Shown piece by piece: positions 22,651 through 63,488 of a DNA stretch of 64,000 nt (position 1 is its first letter; every line of letters starts with the position of its first letter). The DNA is from the human T2T-CHM13v2.0 reference genome, Homo sapiens: the NCBI RefSeq assembly GCF_009914755.1, contig NC_060929.1. The stretch is one strand, 5' to 3'. Both the position numbers and the translations under genes were made by a program. The notes beneath the pieces are model-generated. The model did no database searches. It was not told the DNA's origin and was given only the letters and a program-made list of their open reading frames with translations.

Positions 22651-25600
22651 GCACTACTCAGTTCATAGATGTTCTTAATAGCGGAACGTCTTTCACTCAC
22701 TATCACTTGGGAAATTGAAATCTGAATTCGGATTACCCCTGTGCCTTCCCTCAAGTCAATTTCTTCAACTTCTAAATGTATTTTTTATGTATTAACATAT
22801 TTCTAGTAAACCAGATTTAAGCCAAATAAGAATGTTCACAATTTAAGGAAAACATTTTAGGAAAAGTAGGATTTTGTTTTCTGCCTTCAACAATATTATA
22901 ATATTTCTAGATCGTTAGATACACTGTGTCTTTATGATAAATTATGGTCACTTAAAAAATGAAACAAACTTGGAATTTGAGGCAACCAGTGCTGTTATCT
23001 GAACAACTGATACATTAACTTATGTGTAGTTTACATTTGCTTCTCAAACATGATTCATAGTCTTTCATCAGGAAATGGAGTACCTTTCTTCTAAGCTAAC
23101 ATATTCTATTAGTATAATGAATTATCACTTTTATCTAGGGTATCAGCAGAAATATGACTCATTAATTATATGAACAAGTAACCACTTGCATAAATAATGG
23201 AGAAATGAAAAACCCAATAGCAGCAGCAACAGCAAAACCCTGTATTTTACTTAAACTGTTTTATTAAGCAATACCTATAAAGGTATTTTTTTTTCAAATA
23301 CATATGCTAAGACAATGAAATCAGGGGATTCAGAGAATTGAGACAGAAAATAATATTTTTAAATTTTTAAAATTATTTTGATGATATTTTTTCCAATTTG
23401 CTGTTAATATTTTGGTAGCCATTTACATTGAATAATAGTTCTTTGTATCTTGAATTTTATGTCAATATACTTCTGATTGGAGTCTCATAAAACATCAAAT
23501 GTAGCATAATTTAGCATATGTATACACACTTAAATTCAAAGCAGTACCTAAGGATTCCACCTGCAGAACCTGTTTGCTCCTCATTATTGGCTTACAAAAG
23601 CCTGGTTCAATTGTAATGGATAGGATTAGGCTGTCAGAAGAACACTGCATGGAATATACATACCTTAACGCATTTTGCAAGCATCACTACATTGATAGTC
23701 AATATATACATTACATTTGAGAGCAACAGTTTTTGATAGTAAATCAAAACATAATTTTATAAGTTTCTGAAGTTTTCCCTAGTTTCTTCACATTAAGCCA
23801 GTAGTAAAACCCATTATTGCTTAAAGGTAAGTAAATACAAACCACATCTATGAAAAACATTTTTACTGTTCCAAAACTTCTATTATTTCAATTTCTTTTA
23901 AGTCTGTTTCTTTTCTATTTAAACTTAAATACTGTTATAAACAGTTAATTTAAAAAATACACAATTATAAATTAATAACACAGAAACCATTTGACATTTG
24001 AGTACTTTTCCCTTGGAATTTCAAATTAGTACTTCTTTAGTGCTTAATTTAGTGCATGTATGCTTTACCTAGAGACACAATAACCACACTGAAAGTCATG
24101 AACCATATGTAAGCTTAATGGCAATGAGATATTTAATGTGTCTCATGTGACATACTCTGCAAAATGGTGCTGCATGAATGCCAATACAATGTTGCAAACA
24201 GAAGATCAAATTCACAGACGTTTTACTATAAAATGTCACAATATTTTTTTAAGTGAACTTAAAGATCATTGAAGTCTATAGGAAAAAAAAACTTGCAATG
24301 GAGGAGAACCTTGTTCTTCCAGTACATTAATAGTACTGTGTTTTTTGTTTGTTTGTTTGTTTGTTTTCCAAGATGGTGGATTAGAGGCTTTTAGCAGGCA
24401 TCAGTCACTTGAAAATAGCAAGAGAGTACATAAAACTCTACTTTGTGAGCTTTAATTCAGAAGAAAAAATGGGAATCCACTTGGATCATGAAAGACACCC
24501 CAGATCCTGTGGGGGGAATGACACCAAACAGCCCCATGATGGCGTCTGGCTGATAGAGACTGAAACCCCATGTGCTAGAGAGGCAGTGAGCCTCCTTCTG
24601 TGACTCACCTTTCCACTGGGAGCCTGAGCAACCTAGGCAGACAGAGGACACTTTGTTTCTCCCAAGCTCTGGAGGTAAGGTGGAAGAGGCTTGGCGATGC
24701 TACGAGGGAAAGACACCAGGAAATGCTGCAGATATTTTCCTAGGCCCAGGACTGAAAGCAGTACACCATTTTAAATCTGGGCACACACACATCAGGCACT
24801 CATAGGAGACCCAGCAAAGTGACCATGCAGGCATTTTGGACTCAGGCCGGAGATTGGAGCACCTGCTCTGGAGCTGGGCAGGGGTCTCCATAGCCAGAAC
24901 TGTGGAAAGCACCTCAGCAGTAGGTGCTGGAATTGTGCTCTCCCCATCATAACCCTGGGACAGGAAGAAAACTGCCCTACTTACAGCTCATGGGTGCTGA
25001 GGCTTGAAGCCAGGGCCAGCCAGGCAATTTGGAACTGACATGCATATGACATCGCTGGGTGCTCCAGCCTGCTTCCCTGAAGTCATGGCACACCAGGGCC
25101 TTCTCTGCTTCACTTCTAGGCAGAAATCCAGGCATTTGGAGCACCTGCTTGCCTGAGCCAGCAGCAAGAACCACTCCACCCTTCATGGACACAGATTATA
25201 CTATAACGGGGCTTTCTCTGCTCCATGCTCAGGCAGATCGCCAGGGATCTCCAGGTGACACCTACTCCACTGGATTAGGAGTTTAGGCCACCCCCTATCT
25301 CCATGCAGAATATGAGGCTGAGGAGGTTTCCCAGTTCCATGCCTAGGCACACCTCTGGGCACACTTGGTGACTGCCCACTGGATTCTTCCTGAGCCCTGG
25401 TGCTTGTGCCAGCCATTGGAAGACCTGTATGTGAACTGGCCTGGCTGAGCACTGCTCTTCATGGCCCCACTCCCAGAGCTGAGCAGGGAGCTCAGACCAC
25501 TGCATTCCACGAATCAGCCCATTGCCTGTGGCATCACAGAGATTCTCCCAGTAAACAGGAATCAAGTGTATACCTAGCTGCATAGGCTGCTACTGGCTCT

Positions 25601-26090
25601 TACCTACAAGCACCATTAACTGGCTTGTAGGTCAAACTGAACAGTCCAATATAAAACCTTTTGAAACAAGTGCGTAGGGCTATAGAAGCAAGCCAAAAAG
25701 TCTACACAGCATGCTCACATCTTCTAGGGAAGGGACAAAGAGAAAGGGGTAAAACATAAATATACGTACTTACATAAAGACTATATAAAAATATATGTAT
25801 TTATATCAAAGTATATAAAATATATGTTACATATATTATATTTATATAATATATAATATGTAATGTATTATGCAATGTATATTATATATTCTATAATTAC
25901 ATATTATATGTAATAATATAATATAATATATAATATATACACATATAATTATATAATGCACACATATTACATACAGAAATAAAATACATATAATTATATT
26001 TAAGTTATATATAATATATTATATATTATATAATTATATATTATACATTATATATAATAAATATACTATATATTATAATATGTAACATAT

Positions 26091-26420
26091 ACATATATAA
26101 TAATATAATATATAATATATACATATATAATAATATAATATATAATATATACATATATAATAATATAATATATAATGTATACATATATAATAATATAATA
26201 TATAATGTATACATATATAATAATATAATATATAATGTATACATATATAATAATATAATATATAATGTATACATATATAATAATATAATATATAATGTAT
26301 ACATATATAATAATATAATATATAATATATACATATATAATAATATAATATATAATATATACATATATAATAATATAATATATAATATATACATATATAA
26401 TAATATAATATATAATATAT
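26091..26420. repeat. 30-bp AT-rich minisatellite, 11 full copies
   Basis: Unit acatatataataatataatatataat(a/g)tat; variant order 2A-5G-4A. Confidence 0.97.
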
Positions 26421-26654
26421 ACATATATAATATATACATATATAATAATATAATATATATACATAATTACATATATAAATATAATATATGTAATACATTA
26501 TGATATAAAAATATATATTTTATATACTTTGAAACAAATACGTATATTTTTATATAATTTTAATATAAATGCTTACATTTATGTTTTACCCCTTTCTCTT
26601 TGCACCTTCCCTAGAGGGTGTGAACATGCTGTGTAGACTTTTTGACTTGCTTCT

Positions 26655-26979
26655 TTTTTTTTAAATTTATTTATTATTATTATACTTTAAGTTTTAGGGT
26701 ACATGTGCACAATGTGCAGGTTAGTTACATATGTATACATGTGCCATGCTGGTGCGCTGCACCCACTAACTCGTCATCTAGAATTAGGTATATCTCCCAA
26801 GGCTATTCCTCCCCCCACCCCACAACAGTCCCCAGAGTGTGATGTTCCCCTTCCTGTGTCCATGTGTTCTAATTGTTCAATTCCCACCTATGAGTGAGAA
26901 TATGCGGTGTTTGGTTTTTTGTTCTTGCGATAGTTTACTGAGAATGATGATTTCCAATTTCATCCATGCCCCTACAAAG
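26655..26979 (-). mobile_element. 5'-truncated young L1 (L1PA2/L1PA3) 3' end
   Basis: T tail, tatactttaagttttagggtacatgtgcacaatg, actaactcgtcatct (GAG, not the Ta ACA); TSD CTTGCTTCT at 26646-26654 and 26980-26988. Confidence 0.93.
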
Positions 26980-27605
26980 CTTGCTTCTATAGCCCTACCC
27001 ACTTGTTTCAAAAGGCTTTATATTGGGCTGTGCAGTTTGACCTACAAGCCAGTTAATGGTGCTTGTAGGTAAGAGCCAGTAGCAGCCTGTGCAGCTAGGT
27101 ATACACTTGATTCCTGTTTACTGGGAGAATCTCTGTGATGCCACAGGCAATGGGCTGATTCGTGGAATGCAGTGGTCTGAGCTCCCTGCTCAGCTCTGGG
27201 AGTGGGGCCATGAAGAGCAGTGCTCAGCCAGGCCAGTTCACATACAGGTCTTCCAATGGCTGGCACAAGCACCAGGGCTCAGGAAGAATCCAGTGGGCAG
27301 TCACCAAGTGCCCAGAGGTGTGCCTAGGCATGGAACTGGGAAACCTCCTCAGCCTCATATTCTGCATGGAGATAGGGGGTGGCCTAAACTCCTAATCCAG
27401 TGGAGTAGGTGTCACCTGGAGATCCCTGGAGATCTGCCTGAGCATGGAGCATGGAGCAGAGAAAGCACAATCTGTGTCCATGAAGGGTGGGGTGGTTCTC
27501 GCTGCTGGCTCAGGCAAGCAGGTGCTCCAAATGCCTGGATTTCTGCCTAGAAGTGAAGCAGAGAAGGCCCTGGTGTGCCATGATTTCAGGGTAACAGGCT
27601 GGAGC

Positions 27606-27990
27606 GTATATATTATATAATATATTATATTTTATATAATAAAAACCTTTATAATAAATAAATAAAATACAAATATATAAATAATATATAAATAAAAATT
27701 TATAATAAATGAAATAAATTTTCATACTTTAATTATTAAATAATTGTATTTATTTATATTTAATAATTATTTAGTAATTATTAATTAGTAAACAAAATTA
27801 TTTAATATTTTATTAAATTACTATTAATGATATAATATATTTATATAAATTTTATTAAATTATTACTATAAATTTAATATTTAAAATTATTTAATTTTAA
27901 TATTTTATAATACATAAAATATATGTATTAATATGAATACATTTTATAAACATATTTATATAGAAATGTATATATAGCTTTCTTCGCATA
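27606..27990. repeat. AT-rich low-complexity tract
   Basis: Almost exclusively A/T, starting exactly at the outer end of the right arm. Confidence 0.9.
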
Positions 27991-29220
27991 TAAACATGAA
28001 ACGAAAGAAAAAGAAGAATATTCCACCAGCAATACAATAATTACAAAATTTAGGATTGTCAAGGTCTCCATATGAGAAGGTATCAGCGCAAGAATTCTGG
28101 CACCATGAAAAATCTGAATGCAGTGACCCTACGAAAGGATCACATTAGCTCTCCAGCAATAGTCCCTAAAGTAAAATGAAAACTCAGAAATAACGTATAA
28201 AGAATTCAAAGCATAGATTTCGAGAAAGCTCAATGAGATCCAAGTCAAAGTTGAAAATCAACACAAAGAAACTTCTAAAACAATCCAGGAAGTGCAGAAG
28301 GATATAAACATCTTAAAAACAAATCAATTAGTGCTTTTGGAATTGAAAAATTCAATTGAATAATTTCAAAGTAAAATTGAAAACTTTTTTAACAAATTGA
28401 ATCAAACAGAAGAAAAAATTTTAGAGCTTAAAGACTGGTCTTTTGAACTAACCTGGACAGACAAAAGTAAAGAAAAAAAGAATTCTAAACAAATGAACAA
28501 AGTCTTTGAGAAATATGAGACTATATACAGCAGAAAAACACATGAATTATTGGCATTCCTAAATAAAAAGGTGAAAAAACAACTAATCTGGAAAACATAT
28601 TTGAGAGGGAATAATTGAAGGAAACTTCCCTAATTTTGCTAGAGTGTTGGATATCTAGATACAAGAAATCCAGAGAATGCATTTGAAATACTATGCCAAA
28701 TGAACACTGCCAAGGCAGATAGTCACCAAACTGTCCAAGGTAAATGGTAAAGAAAAAATTTTAAAGGCAATTGGACAAAAAGGTCAGATCATATACAAAG
28801 AGAAACCTATTAGGCTAACAGTGAACTTCTCAGCAGAAACCTTAAAATCCAGAAAAGACTGGGGGGCTATTTTCAGAATTCTTAAAGAAAAAAAAGAATT
28901 CCAATCAAAAAGTTTATACTCTGCCAAAGTCAGCTTCATAAGTGAAAGAGAAGTAAAAGTTTTTCCAGACAAACAACAAAGTGATAAAGGAATTTGTTAC
29001 TACTACACTAGCCTTACAAGAGATTATTAAAGGAGTTCTAAACATAAAAATAAAAGAACAACCTGCTAACGCAAAACACACTTAAGTACATAGCCTGAAG
29101 ACCCTATAAGCAACCATACAATACAAACTACAAAGCAACTGGCTAACAGCCTCATGATAGGGTCAAAACTTCACATATCGATATTAATCTTTAATGTAAA
29201 TGGCCCCAATGACCCACTTA

Positions 29221-29566
<346 letters not shown>

Positions 29567-31615
29567 AAGACACCTCCTTCTGTTGTTTTTAGGAGACCCA
29601 CCACACATGTCATAACATCCATAGGCTCAAAATAAAGGGTTGGAGAAAGATCAACCATGCAAACAGACAATAAAAGAGAGCAGGGATAGCTCTTTTTATA
29701 TCAGATAAACAGACATTGAACAAACGCCAGTAGAAAAGAAAAAACAACAACAAAGAAGGACGTTATGAAATACTAAAGGGTTCAATTCAACAAGAAGACT
29801 TAAGTATTCTAATATATATGCATTCAACATTGGAATACTCAGATTCATAAAGTGAGTACTTCTAGACCCACAAAAAGACTTAGACTGCTGTACTATAATA
29901 GTGAAGGATATGAATACCCCACTGACAGCATTAGCAGATACCAAGGCAGAAAACTACCAAAGAAATTCTGGACTTAAACTTGATGCTTGGCCAATTGGAC
30001 CAAATAGACATCTACAGAATACTCCACTCATCAAACACAAAATATGCATTCTCCTCATCTGCATACAGGACATACTCCAAGATCAACTACATGCTCTGTC
30101 ATAAAACAAGTCTCAAGAAATTAAAAAAAAAATCCAAATCATACCAACCATAGTCTTGGACCCAGTGCACTAAAAATAAAAATCAATACCAAGAAGATCT
30201 CTCAAAACCATGAAATTACATGCAAATTAAACAAATTGTTCCTCAATGACTTTTGAGTAAACAATGAAATTAAGGCAAAAATAAAAAAAATTGAAATAAA
30301 TGCAAACAGAAACACAACATATTAATATCCCAAGGATGCAGCAAAAGCAATGTTAAGAGAAAAGTTTATAGCACTCCAGGTCAACCTCAAAAAGCTAGGA
30401 AGATCTCAAATTAATGACCTAACATCACATCTTGAGGAACTAGAAAAACAAGAGCAAACTAAACCCAAAGCTAACAGAAGAAAAGAAATAACTAAAATCA
30501 CACGGGGGCTGAACAAAAATGAAACCCCAAAATTTATGCAAAAACCCCCCAAAACCACATGTTGGTTATTTGAAAGGATAAAGAAAATCAGTTGATCACT
30601 AGCTAGATTAACAACAAAAAAGAACATCCAAATAAGCACAATCAGAGACAACAAATGTGGCGTTACCACTGATCCCAAGGAAAAACAAAAGATTCTCAGA
30701 GACTATTATGAACACTTCCGCACATGAAAATTAGAAAATCTAGAGAAAATGGAAATCACAATCTCCCAAAATTGAATCAGGAAGAAATTGAAACACTGAA
30801 CAGACCAATATCAATTTCTGAAATTTTATCCATAATCAAAGTCTATAAACCAAAAAAGCCCTAGTCTAAATGGATTATTCACAGCTGAATTCTACCATAC
30901 ATACAAAGAAGAGCCAGTACAAATTCTGTTGAAACTATTCCAAAAATTGAGAAAGCAAAATTCCTCTCTAACTCATTCTATGAAACCAGCATCAACCTGA
31001 AACTAAAACCTGGCAAAGACACAACAACAAAAAATAAAATTGCAAGCCAATATCCCTGATGAATATAGACATGAAAATCCTCAATAAAAAAAAAAAACAC
31101 GAAAAGAAAGAAAAAGAAAAACTAGAAAAACGAATTCAACAGCATATCAAAAAAAGTTAATTCATTGTTCTTTTTTGGGCTGTCACATTGGTTCAGCATA
31201 TACAAATTAATAAATGTGATTAATCACATGAACAGAATTTTAAAAAAAATCATATGATCATTTCAATAGATGCAAAAGAAACTTTTAATAAAATCCAACA
31301 TCTCTTCATTATAAAAACCTTCAAGAAACTAGCCACTGAAGGAACATTTCTCAAAATAATAAGGACCATGTATGACAGACTCACAACAAACATCATACTG
31401 AATGGACAAAAACTGGAAACATTTCTGTATAAGAACTAGAATTAGACAAAGATGCCCACTCTCACCACTCCTAATCAGCATAATACTGAAAGCACTAACC
31501 AGAGCAACCAGGCAAGAGAAAAATATAAAAGGCATCCTTAGAGAAAAGATCTCTGACTGTCTCTCTTCACAGACAATACGATTCTCCACCTAGAGAACTC
31601 TAATGACTCCACCCG

Positions 31616-33945
31616 TAGGAAAAAAAAAATAGGAGTTACAAACCAAAAAATACAAATACTGACTATTGTATGTTACTTTAATGAGTATGCTTTATTTCTT
31701 CATTTGGCTTCAAATTACTGCTTAGTGTCATTTTATTTCCACCTCAAATTTTTTTTTTTTTTTTTTAGCATTTCTTGTATGGCAGGTTTAATAGTGATAA
31801 ACTTCCTTAACTCTTGTTTATCTAAGAATGTCTACATCTCTCTTCATTTTTGAAGAAAAAATTGTCAGATATCAAATTTTTGGCTCACTGTTCTTTGTTT
31901 TCAGCACTTTAAGAAAAATATCCCACTTCATGGTTTGATGAGAAATTTGTTGTTAATAATATTGAGGCTCCTTTATACATAAGAAGTCATTTTTTTTCTT
32001 ATTGCTTTTGAGATTATCTTGTTTTGTCTTTTGACAGTTTTACAATAAGTCTCAGTATACATCTCCTTGAATTTAGCCTACTTGCGTTCATTGAACTTCT
32101 TGGATAGGTAGATGCATACATTTCATCAGATTTGGGAAGTTTTTAGCCATTACGTTTTCAAATATTCCCTCTCACACTTTTTCTGGGGCCCCTACAACAC
32201 ATATGTTGATACACTTGATGGTGTGTTATAGGTCTCTTATTCTCTATTTATTTTTTGTTTGTTTATGCTTTTCAGACTGGTTAATTTCAATTGTCTTGTC
32301 TTCAAATTTACTAATTCTTCTGCCTGTTAAAACGTGCTGTTGGACATCTCTAGTGATTTTTTTCATGTATCTATCTTGTTTTTCAGCTTGATTACTTTCT
32401 AAAATTTATCTATTTGTGGATATTCTTTATTTGTTAATGCATCATTCTCTTGGTTTTCTTTAGGTCTTTTTCCATGGATTCCTTTAGGTTTTTGAGAAAA
32501 TATAAGATAGTTGATTTAAACTTTTTCTTTTAAATACAATGTGTAGGCTTCTTCAGAGAAATAGTTTCTGTCAATTTCTTTTTGTAAATGGGCAATATTT
32601 TCCTAGTTTTTCATAATGCTTTAAAATTATTTATTAAAAATAGATATTATGAATATTAAAATATAACTCTGGAAATTAGATGTCTCCACATCTCTGGTGA
32701 TTGCTGTAATTTCTTTATAAGGGGTGTAATCGTCTCTGTTCTCTTTTCTCTGTTGTTTCCTCAGAGTGATCCTATGTCCTCATGGAAATTTTCTAAATCC
32801 CTGGAGCCAAAACAACAACAACAAAAACCTCTCTTTGTGTTTGCAATCTAGCTCTTAACTATTTATGGCACATCTTTAATGCTTAGACAGGCCTACTGTA
32901 ACTGCACATTTGTCTTCATCTCCTGTTTATATGGAGCTCAGCAATGAGCTAGAGGTGCCAGACTAGGTTTACTCTGAATTTGTGTCTGCGAGTTATATTC
33001 TGGATCTGCCAGTACACGAAGTATCTCTTCTAAGCCCTCGTTTCCTTATTATCTTTCTCCTTAGCATACTTTTCCAGGATTTTCTGTCTGTTTTCCCCCT
33101 GCCATGCCCACCATCTCTTGTCCTAGGTGACTACAGGTAGTATATGTCTTTAAATCCTATCAACAAATCTGTTCAGGAATCTACTGCAGACTCTTGGAAA
33201 GAAAATAAAGATAAGCCTCTGTGCTGATTCCTCTGAAATTACCAAACCGATAAAAATGTGAAACCTATTTTTTTTCCTCGTTTTTTTTTTTTTTTTTTTT
33301 TTTCTTGAGACAGGGTCCAACTCCCATTGCCCAGGCTAGAGTACAGTGGCATGATCTTGATTCATTGCAACCTCGAATTGCCAGGATCAAACAATCCTCC
33401 CGTCTTAGCCTCCTCAGTAGCTGGAATGACAGTCATACACCACCACTCCTGGATAGTGTTTTGTATTTTTAGTAGAGACAGGGTTTTGCCATGTTTTCTG
33501 GGCTGGTCACAAACTCCTGGGCTCAACGTATCCACCTGCCTAGGCCTCCCAAAGTGCTGGGATTACAGGGGTGAGCCACCATATCCTGCCTAAAATGTAA
33601 ATTTTGGGGGAACAAAGTTTACATTGCACCCTCCACTCCCCACCCCCACCCTCCAACCCCAAGGCACCAGCAGGCTGCACCAGAAACACAGACTACCATT
33701 TCCACCACTGATGCTAAGCTGGCGAATAGGGGTGGGCAGATGGGTAGGCAAAAAGTCACAATGCTTTTTTAACTAAAATTATAGCAGACTTTATCTTCAT
33801 TTATCACTATCTGGTTGCTTTAAGGTTTTCCTTTTTTCCAGAGTCCCAAAAGAACTGATTAACTGTTTTCCAGCCTAATAGTTGCTTAAATTAGATGGAG
33901 TGCAGATGTTGGTTCTTGGAGCTTTCTATTTTGCCATTTTCTTTG
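31616..33945 (-). mobile_element. L1MB/L1MC-type 5' portion (5'UTR, ORF1, inter-ORF)
   Basis: ggagttacaaaccaaaaa, tagcatttcttgtatggcagg and tttgggaagtttttagccatt motifs; reverse strand starts gaaaatggcaaaatagaaagctc. Confidence 0.75.
33281..33590 (-). mobile_element. AluJ
   Basis: Poly-T, gagacagggtc, aactcctgggctcaa, cccaaagtgctgggattacagg. Confidence 0.92.
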
Positions 33946-36813: not shown

Positions 36814-39800
36814 CTTACATTTAAAAATGAAATTGTAGGGCAAATTTGATATTTCCTTGTGATCCATAATAAAAAGACTTGTTTAAATAAATATAGATAA
36901 TTATTTTCTAATTTTATTTGGAAGAATATCTTTTTATTAGTGTTATTTTTGACTTAATGTTAAAATTAAGAAAAATAAATTGGTAGCATAGAGGCTGAAC
37001 ATTTGATTGGATGAAGAAAATTATAGCCACACATAAGAGTAATAAATAGGGGAGGGAGGCCGAGATGCTTGACTAGAAGCAGCTAGTGTGCACTATTCTC
37101 ATGGAGAGGAGAAAGAATGGTCAGTAAATACTTGTTCTTCACTGGAACATTCAGGTGGACACATGGGGATTCATCAAGAAAGCAACCTGATCCACAGAGA
37201 AGGGAGAAGAGTGAGACAGGATGACCATCAACCCGCAGTGTCACGGAGATGGGGGAGGCTCCCTCACCCCAGGGAAACAGTGAGTAAGGGAGATTCTCCA
37301 AAGACTCATACTTCTGCCACAAACATTTGCAACTCTGAGCTTAGGAGATTCCACATGAGACCTCCAACAAGGGCCTCCTGATTACACGGAGAGCAATGTG
37401 GGGTCTGGGCAGAGCTGCTGCTCAGACTTACACAGAGTCCCAGGAGCGTTGGATCCCTGGGCATCTTGGCATTAGCAGCTGCTGCTCTGGCAAGGGGGTA
37501 AGTCAGGCTCCTTCACAGACCCCAAGAAAGGGGCTGAATCTATAGGGCTGAGCACCAATGGACTGCAGGCCTCACTTCTACCACACCTCACAGGATAATG
37601 TCCACTGGCCTTGGGATGCTAGCAAGGCCACCCCAGCCCCACCTGGGCTCTTGGGCCAGTAGCAGCTCTGCACTTTTCTGGGATGGAATTCCCAAAGGGA
37701 GAGGCAGATCACTAATTTTTCTGTTTCACAGCTCTCACTGCTGTAGCTCTCAGGCTCTGAAGGGTGCATGGTGATTAAGGACTGGTGCAGAGCCCAGCAC
37801 AGGGCAGCCACCCTACAGAAAAGCAGCCAGACCATTTTCCAAGTGATTTTCTGTTCCCACTTTTCCTGACTGAGCAGGGCCTCTTAATCTGGGACTCCAG
37901 CACAACTACCATGTACCCCTCTGAATACTTCAGTCAGAGAAGGCTCTACATTTCTCCAAGGAGGAAATCCAAGAGAAAACCCACAGCCCCACCAGACTGG
38001 GAAAGGAACAAAGAGTCTGGTCAATAAGATGGCACCTCTGCCACACTACAGCCACCATACACAGAGGAACCCAGGGCCCCTTCCCTGCTGCAACTGACAG
38101 CCCCTCTGCCACTGCCATGGCAGTGGTTCCGCTGCAGCTGCCCTCTGTCTGGGGAAAATACAAAGAGCCCTAGGGCATCACCTGAGCTTCCAGCATGCCA
38201 CAGTTGCCTTAAGGAGAGGAGCCCACTCTTCCCTCGCTGTGAGCCCTTCACACTCCACTTTTCATCAAGAAGAGCCCCCAGCTCGGTCCAACAGTGCAGC
38301 CACCCCACCCCTACTGAACACTCCCAGTAGTAGTGGCTCTGTGCATCTCTGAGGTGGAGCTCGCAGAAGCAATTGAAAGCCCCTCTGCCACTTCCAAGGC
38401 TGTGATATTATCCTTGGTGCCACTGGACTTGAAAACGAGCAAAGACCCTGAGTGCCTTAAGCAAACCTCCAGCAAGCTGCAGTTGCCCTAAGGACAAGAG
38501 GCCATTTTGTCTCCCTCATGACCTCCACCATTCCATCTACTCATCACCAGGAAGGACCCCAATTTGGGCCCACAGTGCAGCCACACTACCCATCACACTG
38601 ATTGATCTGGCTCTACATCTCTCTGGGGTGGAGTCCCAAGCAAAAGGCCCTTTGCCACAACCACTGCCAAGGACCCTTCCCTTGCTGCCTCCAAGATAGG
38701 GAGGGAACATAAAGTCTGAGCTTGCCCTGGAGCTGTGGTGGGCAGCCCAAGAGTGCCAAGCCAAAATCTGCAAGCAGAACTCAAGTGGGAGAGGAGCCCA
38801 CCCTTTCAGAGCACTGAGAAAGAGCAAGGCTGCAATTGTGAGACAATATGAATGAGCCACGTGGCCAAGCAAAAGTCTAGTACTGACCAATACTCATCTG
38901 CACCATCTACTGGTTCACAGCCCAAACTTCAACATCAGAAATATTTTGCTAATATATTTTGAAACCAAGGACAAGAATTCAGCTACAAATAAATACCATG
39001 CATAGATCCCTAGTCCTCTGAAAACATACAGAAAAGAAGTTTACTGGCAGTACTCAATTTACACCTCAGTTAAAGGAACAGCCCACACAAATGGGAAAGA
39101 ATCAGTGTAAGAACTCTGGCAACTCAGAAAGCTGGAGTGTCTTCTTTCCTCCAAACACCACACTAGTTTCCTAGCAAGGATTCTTAACTGGCTGTAGTCC
39201 CTGAAATGACAGATATAGAATTCAGAATATGGATAAGAATAAAGACCATTGAGATAAAGGACAAAGCCAAAACCGTATCCACAATAAGATGATACAGGAG
39301 CTGAAAGACAAAATGGACATTATGAGAAATAACTACACAGATCTGGTAGAGCTAAAAACACTACAAGAATTTCATAATGCAATCGCAAGTATTAACAACA
39401 GAATAGACAAAACTGAGGAATAAATTTCAGAGCTCAAAGACTGGCTGTCTGAACTAACTCAGTAAGACAAAAACAAAGAAGAATAAAAAGAAATGAACAA
39501 AACCTCCAAGAAATATGGGATTATGTAAGAAGACCAAATCTATGACTCATTGTCATCTCTAAAAAGATGAGGAGAAAGCAAGTGACTTGGAAACAAGTAA
39601 GGATATCATCCATGAAAACTTCCCTAACCTTTCTAGACCGGTCAACATTCAAATGCAGGAAATTCAGAGAACCCCTGAGAAATAGTACACAAGAAGGCTA
39701 TTGCCAAGACATATAATCCTCAGACTCTCCAAAGTTGAAATGGAAGAAAACATGTTAAAGGTAATTAGAAAGAATGGGCAGATCACCTACAAAGGGAATC

Positions 39801-41757
39801 CCATGATGCAAACAGCAGACCTTTTAGCAGGCACAGGTTCTGCATCTCTACTCTCTACAAGCCAGAAGCGACTGAGGGCTTATATTCAGGATTCTTAAAA
39901 GAAAAGATTTTCCAACCCAGAATTTCATAGCTGGCCAAACTAAGTTTCACGGGGGAAGGAGGAATAATATATTTTTCAGCCAAACAAATGCTGGTGAATT
40001 TGTTACCATTAGACCTGCCTTATAAGAGGTTTTCAAAGGAATGTTAAGTATGGAATGGAAAGACCACTACCTACCACTACAAAAACATACTTAAGTTCAC
40101 AGACCAGTGACACTATAACGGAGCCACACAAACGAGTCTGCATAATAACCACCCAACAACACAATGACAGAATCAACTCTGCACATATCAATATTAATCT
40201 TGAATGTTTAGTGAGCTAAATGGCTCAATTAAAGGCACAAAGTGGCAAGCTGAGTAAAAACACAAAATCCAATATTATACTGCCTTTAAGAGACCCATCT
40301 CATATGCAGTCACATCCCTAGGCTCAAAATAAAAAGATGGAGAAAATCTACCAAACTAATGGAAAACAGAAAAAGCAGAAGTTGCTATCCTAATTTCAGA
40401 CAAAACAGACTTTAAACCAACAAAGATCAAAAAAGACAAAGAAGGGTACTACAAAATGGTAAAGGTTTCAATTCAATAAGAAGACCTATTATCCAAAATA
40501 TATATCCTCCCATCACAGGAGCACTGAGATTCATAAAGAAAGTTCTTAGAGACCTACAAAGAGACTTAGATTTCCACAGAGTAATAGTGAGAGACTTCAG
40601 CACCCCATTTACAGTATTAGACAGAACATCAATGTAGAAAATTAACAAAGATATTCAGGACCTGAACTCGACACTTGATCAGATGGACTAATAGATATCT
40701 ACAGAACTCTGTATTCAAAAACAACATAATATACATGCTTATTATGACCACAGGGCACATATTCCAAAATCGACTATACAATCAAACATAAAAAATTCCT
40801 AGTAAATTCAAGAAATGTGAAGTCATACCAACCACTCCCCCAGACCACAGCACAATAAAAATAGGAATCAATACTAAGAATTCACTTAAAACCATGTAGT
40901 TACATGGAAATTAAACAACCTGCTCCTGAATTACTTTTGAGTAAATAATGAAATTAAGGCAGAAATCAAGTAACTCTTTGAACCTGATGAGAACAAGAAC
41001 ACAACATACCAGAATCCCTGGGACAAAGCTAAGGCAGTGCTAAGGGGGGAAGTACATAACACTAAATGCCTACATCGAAAATTTAGAAGGATCTCAACTT
41101 AAAGACCTAATATTACAACTAGGGGACCCAGAGAAACAAGAGCAAACCAACCCCAAATCAAGCAGAACACAAAAATAACCAAACTCAGGGATGAATTGAA
41201 GGAAGTTGAGATGCAAAAACAACAACAACAACAACAACGTACAAAAGATCAATGCGTCCAGGAATTAGTTCTTTGAAATACTAAGATAGGTAAAACACTA
41301 GGTAGACTAATAAATAAAAAAAGAGAGGAACAGCCAAATAAACACAACCAGAAATGAGAAAGTGGATGTTACCACTGACTCCACAGAAATATAAAAACTA
41401 CTCAGAGACTACCATAACCACCTCCATGCACACAAACTAGAAATTCTAGAATAAACGAATAAATCCTGGACACATACACCTTCTCAAGACTGAACCGGTA
41501 AGAAATTGAGTCTCTGAACAGAGCAATAATGAGCTTTGAAATTGAATCAGCAAAAAAATAGCCTTCAAACCGAAAAAAGCCCAAGACCAGATGGATTTAC
41601 AGCCAAATTCTACCAGGTGTATCAAGAAGAGCTGGTATCATTACCACGGAAACTATTCCAAAAAACTGAGAAAGAGGGACTCCTCCTTAACTTCAATGTG
41701 AGGCCCACATCATCCTGACTCCAAAACCTGGTGGAGACACAACAAAAAAATAAAACT

Positions 41758-42092
<335 letters not shown>

Positions 42093-45600: not shown

Positions 45601-46657
45601 CTACACAGATAAAACCACATTTTCTGTTCCCCCCCGCCCCGCCCCATGACTAGGTTATTTGATATAGTTCTAATTAATATAATTTTCTTAAAATAATTAA
45701 TATAGAACCTTCTGAGAAATTTTCTTGTAAGATGGCTTATATGAATTCTTTGACCCTTTATGCCCCTCCACCATTTCCCCAGGGATTCGTATGTTACAGT
45801 TGACCATATAACTTAGATACCATTTGAGAATGAGAGGCATACCCTTGATATTTATGAGCAGAATCTTGGAATCTGAAACCTGAAAATTTTGTGTAACAGA
45901 CCTGTCTGTCATTTAGACTTGAGGATAGAACCCCCACGTTTTTACAAGAAAGAGAAGAAAATTTTGATTTTGTTTAAGCCAATAATATCTAAAGTCTGTC
46001 TTTCTTTTAGTTTAACCTAGTAGTAACTTTTGGATCTTCTCTGGTTATGCCAGTACAAGATCATCTGCCCTCTTTATTTCCTGTTATTTTACCTCTACCT
46101 AGCATAACATTATTAGTGTTTACAGAGATCTAAATTTGCATTTAATTACCACGATGGTGTGTGCCTATGGCCAAAAAGACATAGCCATAACGAATCCATA
46201 ACAAAAAGAAAAGTTATTCATCATAGGTAAAATGAATATATTTTACCACCATCAAATGAGAACAGTCAAGCCCTCTGCTCACTGCTTCAGTGAGTTGCAT
46301 ATATAAAGATGAATGAGAATAGTACCTCCAATCAAATACTGTATGTCAAAAGACCCACAGGGCAAAGAAATTGTGCTTTAAATAATGAGAAGCTTGTGCA
46401 CATAATGTCCTCACGTACCATTTGTATTGAGATTAGATTTGTATTTGGTATAGGCAAGAGTTTCTGGTCATGCATCTGCAAACTCATTTGCACAGAAAAA
46501 TGTCTGTGGGTTCAAAGGTTTTATTGAGGTGATATCCATGAACTTAGCTTCTATAAGGTATTCAAAGGTGAAATGGAAAAATAACCTATACACCAAATCA
46601 AAACCGTTTCTTTGAGTAGAGAATGTTTCAACTAAAAAAAAAAAAAAAAAAAATTAT

Positions 46658-46969
46658 GGCTGGGCGTGGTGGCTCATGCCTGTAATCCCAGCACTTTGAG
46701 AGGCCAAGGCGAATGGATCGCTTTGAGCTCAGGAATTCCAGACCAGCCTGAGCAACATGGGGAAACCTCACCTCTAAAACAAAATACAAAAATCAGCCAG
46801 ATATGGTGGTGCCCACCTGTGGTTCCAGCTACTTGGAAGGCTGAGGCTGCAGAATCGCTTGAATTCAGGAGATGGAGGTTAAAGTGAACCAAGATGGCTC
46901 CACTGTACTCCAGCCTGTGCGACAGAGTGAGATCATGTCTAAAAAAATAAATAAATAAAATTAAAATAA
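46658..46969 (+). mobile_element. AluJ
   Basis: Dimeric Alu with ttgagctcagga and cctgagcaacatgg (J-type). Confidence 0.9.
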
Positions 46970-55893: not shown

Positions 55894-56191
55894 GGCCGGG
55901 CGCACTGGCTCATGCCTGTAATCCCAGGACTTTGGGAGGCCGAGGAGGGTGGATCATCTGAGTTTGGGAGTTTGAGAACAGCCTGGCCAGCATGGTGAAA
56001 CCCCATCTCTACTAAAAATACAAAAATAAGCCGGCCATGGTCGCTCATTCCTGTAATCCCAGATACTCAGGAAGCTGAGGAGGGAGAATTGCTGGAACCG
56101 GGTTGGGGGGTGGGGGGATGGGGGCCGAGGTTGCACTGAGCACTCCAGCCTGGGTGACAGAATGAGACTCCATCTAAAAAAAAAAAAAAGA
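55894..56191 (+). mobile_element. AluS with expanded G tract
   Basis: Dimeric Alu; TSD aagaaac(c/g)ctttga at 55880-55893 and 56192-56205. Confidence 0.92.
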
Positions 56192-57249
56192 AAGAAACGC
56201 TTTGATGGCTTTTTCTGGCTATGGAAATTTTCTCAGCTTGCAAGCAGTGCAAGTGTAATATTCTGGGGGAGTTAATTCATCCAAAACAGCTCTAGAGAAG
56301 TTATAGAATGAGCAATTTGATAAGCACCCCAGCTTGCTTCATTCTCTCTGAGACATTTTCTAAATATTTTCCATAATTCCCTAACAGGATTAAAATCCAG
56401 TCACCCATATCAGTAATCTTCTCAATAAAGCATCTTTGGAGTCCCCTTCTCTGTCACGTTTCTGCTCTTCCTTCCCCCATTACCTCTCAAATAAACCTAT
56501 TTCACTTAAATCCTCTCTCATAGTCTGCTTCTGGGGAACAAAACTTAAAGGAAAATCCATGCATGACTTACATCAATATAAAGCCAATTATATTTCAAGG
56601 CTCCTCATAGGACCATTTCCCTCCAATAAATTCTGCTTTAATGTGCCCAGCCTACGATAATATTGCAATCCTATGAAGACCTATTGACATTAATTATGAC
56701 ACATATTTTGGCCTTCATAAATAAATATCTGGAATTATGCATTTTTTGTTTAAAGTTTTACTCTCTTGTCTCTCCAGGATTTTATCCCCTCATAGTGTTA
56801 TCTACACACAGTCAGTGATAAAAACTCTTGCTGAATTTTATCAAATCTTGCCATCTTTGTTGGACTTTTAGGCAATGAGGATCTATCCCTTCTACTGCAT
56901 CAGTATGAACTCATACTCTCAGTGCAATGAGCGGAAGTTCTAAACAGTTGATAGTTCAATGGTTAATGAACTCTATGGTTAATGAACCATAGAACTCTGA
57001 CAGTTCTATGGTTAATGTAGTCAACACTACATCTCTGCTTTCTCTCTCCAGCTTAATGAGTTTGTGAGTAGTTTCTCCTATGATGTTACACTCATATATT
57101 GATAGTAATTCATAGAATCACATGATTCAGCTCCCTAACAGAAATGCAAATGATAATTAATGGTCAATACACCATCTTACTTTGACACCAAAGAATCAAT
57201 ATGATAATCCTGTGGTCTCTATTTTCCTATTCTAATAGGAAACAGTCTT

Positions 57250-63047: not shown

Positions 63048-63488
63048 GAGCTAGGCATCGTATCTGTAATCCCAGGACTTTGGGAGGCCAAAGCTGGAGA
63101 ATAGCTTGAGGCCAGGAGCTTGAGACCAGCCTGGGCAACATAGTAAGACCCCATCTCTACAAAAATAAAAAATAAAGTTAGGTGGGCATGGTGACATGCA
63201 CCTGTGGTCCTGGCTACTAGGGAGGCTGAGACATGAGGATTGTTTAAGGCCAGAAGTTTAAGGCTGCAGAGAGCTATGATTGTGCTACCACACTCCAGTC
63301 TGAGCAACAGAGTGAGACCCAGTCTGTCTCTTAAAAAAAAGACAAAGAAAGAAAGAAAGAGAGAGAGAGAAAGAAAGACAGAAAGAGAGAGAGAGAAAGA
63401 AAGAAAGAGAGAAGAAAGAAGGAAGGAAGGAAGGAAGGGAGGGAGGGAGGGAGGGAGGGAAAAGAAAGGAAAAGAAGAGAAAATAAGA
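63048..63488 (+). mobile_element. AluJ with tail expanded into purine-rich microsatellites
   Basis: gcttgaggccagga, cctgggcaacatagtaagacc; TSD aaa(t/a)tgttagaag at 63035-63047 and 63489-63501. Confidence 0.92.

What the first reader, a model, noticed from the sequence alone, without database searches (positions are those of the whole stretch)
25241..27429. Identity gradient along the arms suggests gene conversion or recurrent spacer inversion
Seen by manual comparison: core 25241-25639 vs 27033-27429 differs by one substitution (25583) and one 2-bp indel in ~400 bp. The outer 180 bp has ~6-7 substitutions, an 11-bp deletion and a 7-bp duplication. The inner 120 bp (25640-25760) has ~10 substitutions. 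A single duplication should diverge uniformly. Inference: the core was recently homogenised by intra-palindrome conversion, as known for Y-chromosome palindromes but here at ~1 kb scale. Crossover in the core would flip the spacer and its L1PA insert.
Basis: partly seen in the sequence, partly recalled or inferred. Interest (0 to 1): 0.8.

Follow-up and report, generated by a model that had tools for sequence, protein, structure and literature searches.

The report
Small L1-derived palindrome with converted core
A roughly 0.76-kb inverted duplication of an old L1 element's leading end, around an AT-rich centre, has a 420-bp stretch that is almost identical between its two arms while both ends of the arms have drifted apart, which is best explained by one arm having recently been copied onto the other, an ordinary and well-known process.

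Summary
The arms are 25061-25824 and 27605-26514. They align over 751 columns with 28 substitutions:
- outer part: 6 of 147
- core 25219-25639: 2 of 419, plus a 2-bp indel
- inner L1-derived part 25640-25759: 9 of 120
- AT-rich tip 25760-25824: 11 of 65

No run of 427 columns with at most 2 mismatches appeared in 100000 permutations. With the AT-rich tip excluded, it appeared in 27 of 100000.

The arms are an inverted duplication of the 5'UTR of an old L1, lying inside that same L1. A 5'-truncated L1PA later split the right arm, so it sits in the arm and not in the spacer.

Twenty-eight L1 paralogs were used as outgroup. Flank differences are derived about equally in the two arms (8 versus 7). 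The core is as far from the family majority as ordinary copies are, so low mutation or long-term constraint does not explain its identity.

Best reading: a recent arm-to-arm conversion tract of about 400-420 bp. Spacer inversion and repeated conversion could not be tested here, because no ape or pangenome sequence was available. This is a known kind of event at a small scale.

The parts
24360..25759 (+). 5'UTR of the host element, an old L1 (subfamily not assigned). Its upstream part consists of tandem monomer-like repeats.
   Evidence: paralogs L003-L006 align at 72-74% from 24360 to about 25700-25759; paralog L005 carries frames downstream that I recognise from recall as L1 ORF1- and ORF2-like (no family search was run); 86 matches in the genome, with copies other than the right arm at 67-82% identity (the long matches at 71-75%).
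25061..25824 (+). Left arm of the inverted duplication. It is contiguous with the host L1 upstream, and its last 65 bp are AT-rich non-L1 sequence.
   Evidence: The AT-rich 65 bp pair without gaps at 54 of 65, p<=2e-6 against composition.
25219..25639 (+). Near-identical core, left copy. It has 2 substitutions in 419 columns (25240, 25583) and a CA insertion at 25360-25361 that is derived in the left arm.
25825..26513 (.). AT-rich spacer, containing a tandem array with a 30-bp period (25918-26517, 20 copies).
   Evidence: The spacer's self-complementarity is no greater than its direct self-similarity, so there is no evidence that the palindrome runs through it.
26514..26644 (-). Inner 131 bp of the right arm, cut off from the rest by the L1PA. 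It has 16 substitutions against 25694-25824.
26645..26978 (-). 5'-truncated L1PA 3' end on the minus strand. The element proper is 26654-26978, with a poly-T run at 26654-26662. The target-site duplication CTTGCTTC lies at 26646-26653 and 26980-26987. The left arm keeps the empty site.
   Evidence: Sequence read directly; 40 scored matches at 92-96%; 4 of 303 substitutions and one 7-bp deletion against the column majority of the 20 nearest copies.
26979..27605 (-). Outer and core part of the right arm. The core copy is 27033-27451. The 7-bp tandem duplication is at 27452-27458, and the 11-bp deletion lies between 27468 and 27469.
   Evidence: The paralogs have sequence where the right arm lacks 11 bp, so this is a deletion in the right arm.
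27606..27999 (.). AT-rich tract between the right arm and the point where the host L1 resumes.
   Evidence: Its similarity to the spacer is not clearly above composition (score 74 vs null 56 +/- 7.6).
28000..29817 (+). Continuation of the host L1 (end of the 5'UTR and the ORF1/ORF2 region). The alignment has a gap at 29259-29559 in which a further repeat lies.
   Evidence: L005 2183-3430 aligns to 28000-29258 and L005 3419-3666 to 29560-29817. L005 position 2169 corresponds to 25759 and 2183 to 28000, so 25760-27999 is an insert in the host L1.

Best explanation
An old L1 acquired an AT-rich tract at the junction of its 5'UTR and ORF1. Later, 764 bp spanning the end of the 5'UTR and the first 65 bp of that tract were copied in inverted orientation into the AT-rich tract about 690 bp downstream. 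This made a small palindrome. The likely route is a fold-back or template switch at hairpin-prone AT-rich repeats, but this step is inferred. The two arms then diverged to roughly 4-8%. A 5'-truncated L1PA inserted into the right arm. More recently, a non-reciprocal intrachromosomal recombination event (arm-to-arm gene conversion) copied about 400-420 bp of one arm onto the other. That erased the differences in 25219/25241-25639. The edges of the erased block lie next to interruptions of homology. On the outer side these are the 7-bp duplication and the 11-bp deletion. On the inner side the L1PA lies 54 bp away. This fits heteroduplex or synthesis tracts that stop short of heterologies (inferred). 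The remaining 1-2 substitutions and the CA insertion arose after the event. Shown: the anatomy, the significance of the heterogeneity, the polarity of the differences, and the absence of a long-term slow-down in the core. Inferred: conversion as the cause, the order and dates of events, and the role of the heterologies.
For: (1) Core 2 of 419 against L1-derived flanks 15 of 267, Fisher p=3e-5. The longest run with at most 2 mismatches was reached in 0 of 100000 permutations, or 27 of 100000 without the AT-rich tip. (2) The pattern is non-monotonic. The outer segment is also more diverged than the core (6 of 147 vs 2 of 419, p=0.005), which fits an internal tract rather than a trend tied to the centre. 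(3) With 28 L1 5'UTR paralogs as outgroup, 17 L1-derived differences polarise as 8 derived in the left arm, 7 in the right and 2 ambiguous. The indels are one-arm events. So both arms have been evolving independently outside the core. (4) The left core differs from the family majority at 11.8% (44 of 372), against 12.7 +/- 1.7% for the 28 paralogs over the same columns. Paralog divergence differs at most 1.2-fold between segments: 15.4, 12.7 and 14.0%. An intrinsically low mutation rate or long-term constraint in the core is therefore not seen. (5) The L1PA in the right arm postdates the duplication, since the left arm has the empty site and the insert has a target-site duplication. It has 4 of 303 differences from the majority of its nearest relatives. 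At that rate about 11 arm-to-arm differences would be expected in the core, and 2 are seen (conditional binomial p=0.046; p=0.023 for 25241-25639). (6) No other copy in the genome is closer than 82% to any part of the arm, and the long matches are 71-75%. The only possible donor for the core is the other arm. (7) Arm-to-arm conversion in human palindromes is established, as are conversion tracts of a few hundred bp (passages of PMC8327919, and PMC3961182).
Against: Only one haplotype of one species was available, so the defining test (arms clustering by species in the core) was not run. The dating argument from the L1PA is only marginal (p=0.046). It also rests on a majority taken from the 20 best-scoring of 1493 first-look candidates, which biases the L1PA divergence downward. 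No GC-bias is visible in the core: the weak-to-strong fraction is 0.26 (9 of 35) against 0.26 +/- 0.06 in the paralogs. This argues against sustained conversion but has little power against a single event. The core boundaries were chosen after seeing the data, although the scan permutation allows for that. The left arm's outer and inner segments are unusually far from the family majority (26.2% and 20.8% against 15.4 +/- 3.4% and 14.0 +/- 3.6%). Most of that excess is shared by both arms. Some local rate or alignment peculiarity of the flanks therefore exists and is unexplained.
Confidence: 0.7

Rival explanations
1. Stepwise growth. An older, short inverted repeat near the AT-rich centre (roughly 25640-25824) was later extended outward by fold-back priming or break-induced copying. 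On this view the core is simply younger DNA than the inner part, not converted DNA.
For: The inner part is the most diverged: 9 of 120 in L1-derived sequence and 11 of 65 in the AT-rich tip. Palindrome formation primed from short inverted repeats is an established mechanism (recalled, no paper read here).
Against: The outermost 147 columns are again more diverged than the core (p=0.005), so age does not fall steadily outward. Outer and inner parts do not differ significantly (p=0.29). The L1PA appears older than the core's identity (p=0.046), and an extension made after the L1PA insertion would have had to skip it.
Confidence: 0.1
2. Mutation-rate heterogeneity. The inner arm next to the hairpin-prone AT-rich array, and the monomer-repeat outer end, mutate faster, while the core only looks homogenised.
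For: The AT-rich tip has the highest divergence (17%). The left arm's outer and inner segments are more diverged from the L1 family majority than any or most paralogs. Structural change concentrates around the centre of symmetry in X palindromes (passages of PMC8327919).
Against: The excess in the flanks is about 1.5-1.7-fold, while the arm-to-arm contrast is 8-15-fold. Most of the flank excess is shared by both arms, so it is not arm-to-arm divergence. The outer end is far from the centre. CpG content does not differ (1, 2, 1 and 1 CpG per segment), and only 5 of 28 differences are in a CpG context.
Confidence: 0.08
3. Purifying selection keeps the 420-bp core unchanged in both arms, for example as a regulatory element or a structured hairpin RNA.
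For: A RefSeq enhancer feature (24033-25231, from the hub's annotation) lies next to the arm and overlaps its outer end.
Against: The enhancer feature overlaps the diverged outer part, not the core. The core has accumulated as many changes from the L1 family majority as ordinary copies have (11.8% vs 12.7 +/- 1.7%). Constraint would have to act on about 420 consecutive bases in both copies.
Confidence: 0.05
4. Assembly or polishing artefact. Reads from the two arms were mixed, so the core identity is a consensus collapse.
For: None from the calls made. It is the generic concern for any inverted repeat.
Against: The whole structure is 2.5 kb, far shorter than the long reads behind this assembly (recalled). 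A collapse would not spare both ends of the arms or leave a one-arm CA insertion and two substitutions inside the core. Reads could not be examined here.
Confidence: 0.03

Closest known systems
Arm-to-arm gene conversion in the large palindromes of the human Y and X chromosomes
   Same: Inverted arms flank a spacer. Arm-to-arm identity is higher than the age of the structure allows. Crossover between the arms would invert the spacer. Instability and divergence are concentrated near the centre of symmetry (passages of PMC8327919; abstracts of PMC3723533 and PMC8981503 in the listings).
   Different: The arms here are 0.76 kb rather than 8 kb to over 1 Mb. The locus is autosomal, made of L1 5'UTR and lies in a gene desert. 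Only about 55% of the arm is homogenised. No GC-bias is seen. Overall arm identity is about 96%, against over 99% in the sex-chromosome palindromes.
Inverted-repeat-mediated polymorphic inversions in humans (NAHR between inverted repeats; InvFEST-type catalogues)
   Same: Inverted repeats of hundreds of bp to kb flank a short segment. Recurrent inversion and conversion between repeats are described (PMC3961182 passages; PMC13629690 abstract and sections 4 and 13, which state inverted repeats from 140 bp and inversions from 197 bp).
   Different: Neither orientation polymorphism nor recurrence is shown for this locus. It is not listed in the supplements searched. Arms under 1 kb made of L1 sequence fall outside the segmental-duplication definition that such catalogues use (section 13 of PMC13629690).
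Palindromic AT-rich repeats (PATRRs) at translocation breakpoints
   Same: There is an AT-rich, hairpin-prone centre within an inverted symmetric structure.
   Different: The PATRR definition is recalled: near-perfect AT-rich palindromes of a few hundred bp without a spacer. Here the symmetric part is 54% GC L1 sequence, and the AT-rich centre is a direct tandem array with no symmetry beyond low complexity.
Template-switch homogenisation of short inverted repeats
   Same: It homogenises inverted-repeat arms and can invert the spacer (abstract of PMC8604942, listing).
   Different: That process is described for short, non-identical inverted repeats producing multinucleotide mutations. Here the homogenised block is about 400 bp, a size typical of recombinational conversion tracts.

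Membership tests
Palindrome maintained by arm-to-arm gene conversion | Two arms in inverted orientation around a spacer on one chromosome | tested here: met
   Arms 25061-25824 and 27605-26514, spacer 25825-26513.
Palindrome maintained by arm-to-arm gene conversion | [quoted passage not shown] | not testable with these tools
   No primate genome other than the window's own assembly is reachable.
Palindrome maintained by arm-to-arm gene conversion | Tract-like block of identity inside otherwise diverged arms, beyond chance | tested here: met
   A run of 427 columns with at most 2 mismatches was reached in 0 of 100000 permutations. Both flanks are more diverged than the core.
Palindrome maintained by arm-to-arm gene conversion | Identity younger than the structure, by independent dating | tested here: inconclusive
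   The L1PA in the right arm has 4 of 303 differences from its relatives' majority, against 2 of 419 between the cores. Conditional p=0.046.
Palindrome maintained by arm-to-arm gene conversion | GC-biased substitution pattern in converted sequence | tested here: not met
   The weak-to-strong fraction is 0.26 in the core against 0.26 +/- 0.06 in 28 paralogs. Power is low.
Inverted-repeat-mediated polymorphic inversion | Both orientations of the segment between the repeats observed among individuals or species | not testable with these tools
   Only one haplotype is held. No entry was found at T2T chr5 86.38-86.40 Mb in the supplements of PMC10150506 or at 86.391-86.393 Mb in those of PMC12350169 (one file unreadable, one cut when stored).
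PATRR | AT-rich, near-perfect palindrome without a substantial spacer (definition recalled) | tested here: not met
   Arm GC is 0.54 in the outer and core parts. The 689-bp spacer scores higher in direct than in inverted self-alignment (117.5 vs 87.5).
L1 twin-priming 5' inversion | An inverted 5' segment joined to a direct 3' segment of one insertion, without duplication of the same L1 positions (definition recalled) | tested here: not met
   Both arms cover the same 5'UTR positions. The copy also includes 65 bp of non-L1 AT-rich sequence, and AT-rich DNA flanks it on both sides.
Two independent L1 insertions in opposite orientation | Copies no more alike than family members are, with homology ending at the element's ends | tested here: not met
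   The arms are 96% alike, while other long genomic matches are 71-75%. Homology runs 65 bp beyond the L1 end.

The most novel reading that the evidence does not exclude
This non-genic, autosomal, sub-kilobase palindrome may have been kept partly homogeneous by repeated arm-to-arm conversion since before the ape radiation, and may flip its 1.4-kb centre (AT-rich array plus L1PA) recurrently in human populations. The converted block would be confined by small heterologies. It would then be a natural example showing the minimal homology and the barrier effect of indels and insertions on conversion and inversion in the human germ line.
Probability: 0.2. Interest if true: 0.4.

Novelty: new member of a known kind. 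Interest (0 to 1): 0.25.

Why it matters
The phenomenon itself is textbook: conversion between inverted repeats, which brings with it the potential to invert the segment between them. This locus is in a gene desert and has no annotated gene. Its modest value is as a clean small-scale example. The arms derive from an L1, so dozens of genomic paralogs serve as a built-in outgroup. A datable L1PA insertion in one arm gives a time marker. The converted block ends next to defined heterologies. Arms under 1 kb made of transposon sequence fall outside segmental-duplication-based inversion catalogues. Loci like this one are therefore probably under-surveyed for conversion and for small inversions.

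Tried and rejected
(1) Palindrome running through the spacer. The inverted self-alignment of the spacer (score 87.5) is beaten by the direct (117.5) and the reversed-only (107.5) controls. The axis scan was driven by length alone. Rejected as low-complexity similarity.

(2) The right-hand AT-rich tract (27606-27999) as a copy of the spacer. Best score 74 direct and 64.5 inverted, against a shuffle null of 56 +/- 7.6 with maximum 80.5. Not supported.

(3) GC-biased conversion signature. None found.

(4) CpG decay as the cause of the gradient. Only 5 of 28 differences are in a CpG context, and CpG counts per segment are similar.

(5) Known polymorphic inversion at this locus. The chr5 entries in PMC3961182 are at 178.8 and 180.5 Mb, which is elsewhere. 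PMC6748972 has no chr5 hit in its main text. Nothing was found in the supplements of PMC10150506 or PMC12350169. Supplemental Table S1 of PMC13629690, a catalogue of 612 candidates, was not looked up, and it may bear on this point. I had no hg38 or hg19 coordinates for the locus, so catalogues in those coordinates could not be searched.

(7) The subfamilies of the host L1 and of the L1PA could not be assigned, because no repeat library is available.
Full report
**Observation**

The repeat finder reports four collinear inverted pairs, I1-I4, that together form one interrupted inverted repeat. A gapped alignment of 24950-25860 against the reverse complement of 26480-27720 was made and counted. 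The arms are 25061-25824 on the left and 27605-26514 on the right. They align over 751 columns with 28 substitutions.

| Segment (left-arm coordinates) | Substitutions | Percent |
|---|---|---|
| Outer 25061-25218 | 6 of 147 | 4.1 |
| Core 25219-25639 | 2 of 419 | 0.48 |
| 25640-25693 | 4 of 54 | 7.4 |
| 25694-25759 | 5 of 66 | 7.6 |
| AT-rich tip 25760-25824 | 11 of 65 | 17 |

- 11 bp present only in the left arm (25198-25208).
- A 7-bp tandem duplication only in the right arm (27452-27458).
- 2 bp present only in the left arm (25360-25361).

The right arm is interrupted by 334 bp (26645-26978).

**Is it more than chance?**

I permuted the mismatch positions over the aligned columns. A run of at least 427 columns with at most 2 mismatches occurred in 0 of 100000 permutations. 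When the AT-rich tip was left out, it occurred in 27 of 100000.

Fisher tests:
- Outer vs core: p=0.005.
- Inner L1-derived part vs core: p=4e-5.
- Pooled L1-derived flanks (15 of 267) vs core: p=3e-5.
- Outer vs inner: p=0.29.

CpG context does not explain the pattern. Only 5 of 28 differences touch a CpG, and the segments hold 1, 2, 1 and 1 CpG.

**What the sequence is**

The left arm has 86 matches in the window's own genome. The right arm matches at 96%, and its severed inner part at 88%. All other copies match at 67-82%, with the long matches at 71-75%. The first about 188 bases match several times in tandem in those loci.

In paralog L005, the DNA downstream of the match carries frames that I recognise, from recall, as L1 ORF1- and ORF2-like. 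No family search was run on them.

Aligning four paralogs to the window gives the following:
- The host is an old L1 on the + strand, with its 5'UTR at 24360-25759.
- The host resumes at 28000. L005 position 2169 corresponds to 25759, and position 2183 to 28000.
- So 25760-27999 is an insert in that L1.

The insert consists of three parts:
- AT-rich DNA with an array of 30-bp period at 25918-26517.
- The inverted copy of 25061-25824.
- More AT-rich DNA (27606-27999).

The copy includes 65 bp beyond the end of L1 homology. These pair at 54 of 65 without gaps (p<=2e-6 against composition). Two things follow: the AT-rich tract was there first, and the arms are a local inverted duplication rather than two separate L1 insertions.

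The spacer itself shows no inverted symmetry beyond what its low complexity gives. The direct and reversed-only controls score higher than the inverted alignment. The right AT-rich tract is not demonstrably a copy of the spacer.

**The interruption of the right arm**

Read directly, 26654-26978 is the reverse complement of an L1 3' end, with a poly-T run at 26654-26662. It is flanked by CTTGCTTC at 26646-26653 and at 26980-26987. The left arm has the empty site with one copy. So the L1PA inserted into the right arm after the duplication.

It lies between the right core and the inner 131 bp of the arm, not in the spacer.

Its 40 scored genomic matches are 92-96% identical. Against the column majority of the 20 best, it differs at 4 of 303 positions and by one 7-bp deletion in a C-rich run. 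Those 20 copies themselves differ from the majority by 0.9-3.6%. This suggests a young L1PA, but no subfamily could be assigned. Choosing the best-scoring relatives also biases its divergence downward.

**Polarity of the differences**

I aligned 28 paralogous L1 5'UTR copies to the left arm. These were L003-L010 and L031-L050, which are all the non-self copies fetched.
- Of the 17 differences in L1-derived sequence, 8 are derived in the left arm, 7 in the right, and 2 differ from the majority in both arms.
- The 11-bp indel is a deletion in the right arm.
- The CA is an insertion in the left arm.
- The 7-bp repeat is a duplication in the right arm.

Outside the core, therefore, both arms have been accumulating their own changes. 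This is what real, independent divergence looks like.

**Is the core intrinsically slow?**

Over columns with a clear majority:

| Segment | Left arm vs L1 family majority | 28 paralogs over the same columns |
|---|---|---|
| Core | 11.8% (44 of 372) | 12.7 +/- 1.7% |
| Outer | 26.2% | 15.4 +/- 3.4% |
| Inner | 20.8% | 14.0 +/- 3.6% |

The core has not evolved slowly over the life of the element. This argues against a low mutation rate or long-standing constraint as the cause of its arm-to-arm identity.

The outer and inner segments of the left arm are unusually diverged. Most of that excess is shared by both arms, so it does not contribute to arm-to-arm divergence. I cannot explain it. A shifted register in the tandem monomers is one possibility for the outer part.

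**Dating**

These figures are rough, and the rates are recalled rather than taken from any call.
- Flanks at 5.6% between arms (95% interval 3.1-9.3%) imply about 25 million years at 1e-9 to 1.2e-9 per site per year.
- The L1PA at 1.3% from its majority (0.4-3.4%) implies about 8-13 million years.
- The core at 0.25-0.48% between arms (upper limit 1.7%) implies about 1-2.5 million years.

The direct comparison of the core with the L1PA is only marginal. The conditional probability of seeing 2 or fewer of the 6 events in the core is 0.046. For the narrower core it is 0.023.

**Mechanism**

The best reading is one recent non-reciprocal copy of about 400-420 bp from one arm to the other, or possibly a few such events. 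The supporting points are these:
- The block is bounded on both sides by diverged arm sequence.
- Its outer edge coincides with the 7-bp and 11-bp heterologies.
- Its inner edge lies 54 bp from the L1PA heterology.
- The severed inner 131 bp and the outer 137 bp are short homology blocks.
- No other genomic copy is close enough to serve as donor.
- Tracts of a few hundred bp are the usual size in mammals (passage in PMC3961182).

Sustained, intense conversion of the sex-chromosome-palindrome kind is not indicated. About 45% of the arm is unconverted. The weak-to-strong fraction of changes in the core (9 of 35, 0.26) equals that of the paralogs (0.26 +/- 0.06).

**Rivals**
- Outward growth from an older inner repeat fails on the diverged outer segment, and on the L1PA lying between the inner part and the core.
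- Faster mutation near the centre may well add to the 17% in the AT-rich tip. It cannot produce an 8-15-fold contrast, and it cannot explain the outer segment.
- Selection on the core is not supported. The annotated enhancer overlaps the diverged outer part, not the core.
- An assembly artefact is unlikely for a 2.5-kb structure, but it could not be checked against reads.

**Inversion**

A crossover within the cores would invert 25640-27032, L1PA included. Nothing in a single haplotype records whether this has happened.

The searches for a listed inversion gave the following:
- PMC10150506 supplements (41 genomes on T2T coordinates): no number beginning with 8638, 8639 or 8640.
- PMC12350169 supplements: no relevant hit for 86391, 86392 or 86393. 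One file was unreadable and one was cut when stored.
- PMC3961182 and PMC6748972: no entry near this locus in the main text.
- The 612-candidate catalogue of PMC13629690 was read only as abstract and sections 4 and 13. Its Supplemental Table S1 was not looked up.

That paper's methods state that the inverted segmental duplications added to the catalogue had to be 1-50 kb long and not made entirely of transposable elements. This would exclude the present locus from that source.

**Comparison with what is known**

The locus works like the conversion-maintained palindromes of the X and Y. PMC8327919 reports arms of 8-140 kb, within-species arm divergence below 0.2%, and rearrangements concentrated at the centre of symmetry (passages). 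It also resembles the inverted-repeat pairs behind recurrent human inversions. It differs from these in four ways: it is about ten-fold or more smaller, it is autosomal and non-genic, it is built from L1 5'UTR, and it is only partly homogenised.

It is not a PATRR, not a twin-priming inversion, and not a pair of independent L1 insertions. In each case a defining feature was tested and not met.

**Verdict**

The conversion reading is supported by evidence within this genome but not proven. The inversion reading is untested. This is an ordinary process seen in a tidy small example.

Noticed in passing
window 25061-25218 and 25640-25759: Both arms share an excess of differences from the L1 family majority in the outer and inner segments: the left arm is at 26.2% and 20.8%, against 15.4 +/- 3.4% and 14.0 +/- 3.6% in 28 paralogs. 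The core is typical at 11.8% vs 12.7%. The cause is unknown. It may be a shifted monomer register in the outer part, or a locally raised mutation rate before the duplication.
   Followed up: partly
window 25760-27999: The whole 2.24-kb block (AT-rich tract, inverted copy, AT-rich tract) is an insert at the 5'UTR/ORF1 junction of an otherwise near-full-length old L1, which spans 24360-25759 and resumes at 28000. The origin of the AT-rich DNA itself is unexplained.
   Followed up: partly
window 25918-26517: A tandem array with a 30-bp period, about 20 copies at 84% match, fills most of the spacer, with sub-periods of 15 and 7. It is likely to vary in length among people, but this was not tested.
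   Followed up: no
window 24033-25231: The RefSeq enhancer feature given by the hub lies on the tandem-monomer part of the old L1 5'UTR and overlaps only the outer 171 bp of the left arm. The right-arm copy of that part has no such annotation.
   Followed up: no
window 39354-40471: A second, more diverged L1 ORF1/ORF2-region fragment (65-68% to the paralogs) lies about 11 kb downstream. Several short matches in the window align to repeats sitting in the flanks of the fetched paralog loci: 540-707, 33268-33582, 41762-42085, 46645-46955, 55906-56197 and 63069-63378.
   Followed up: no
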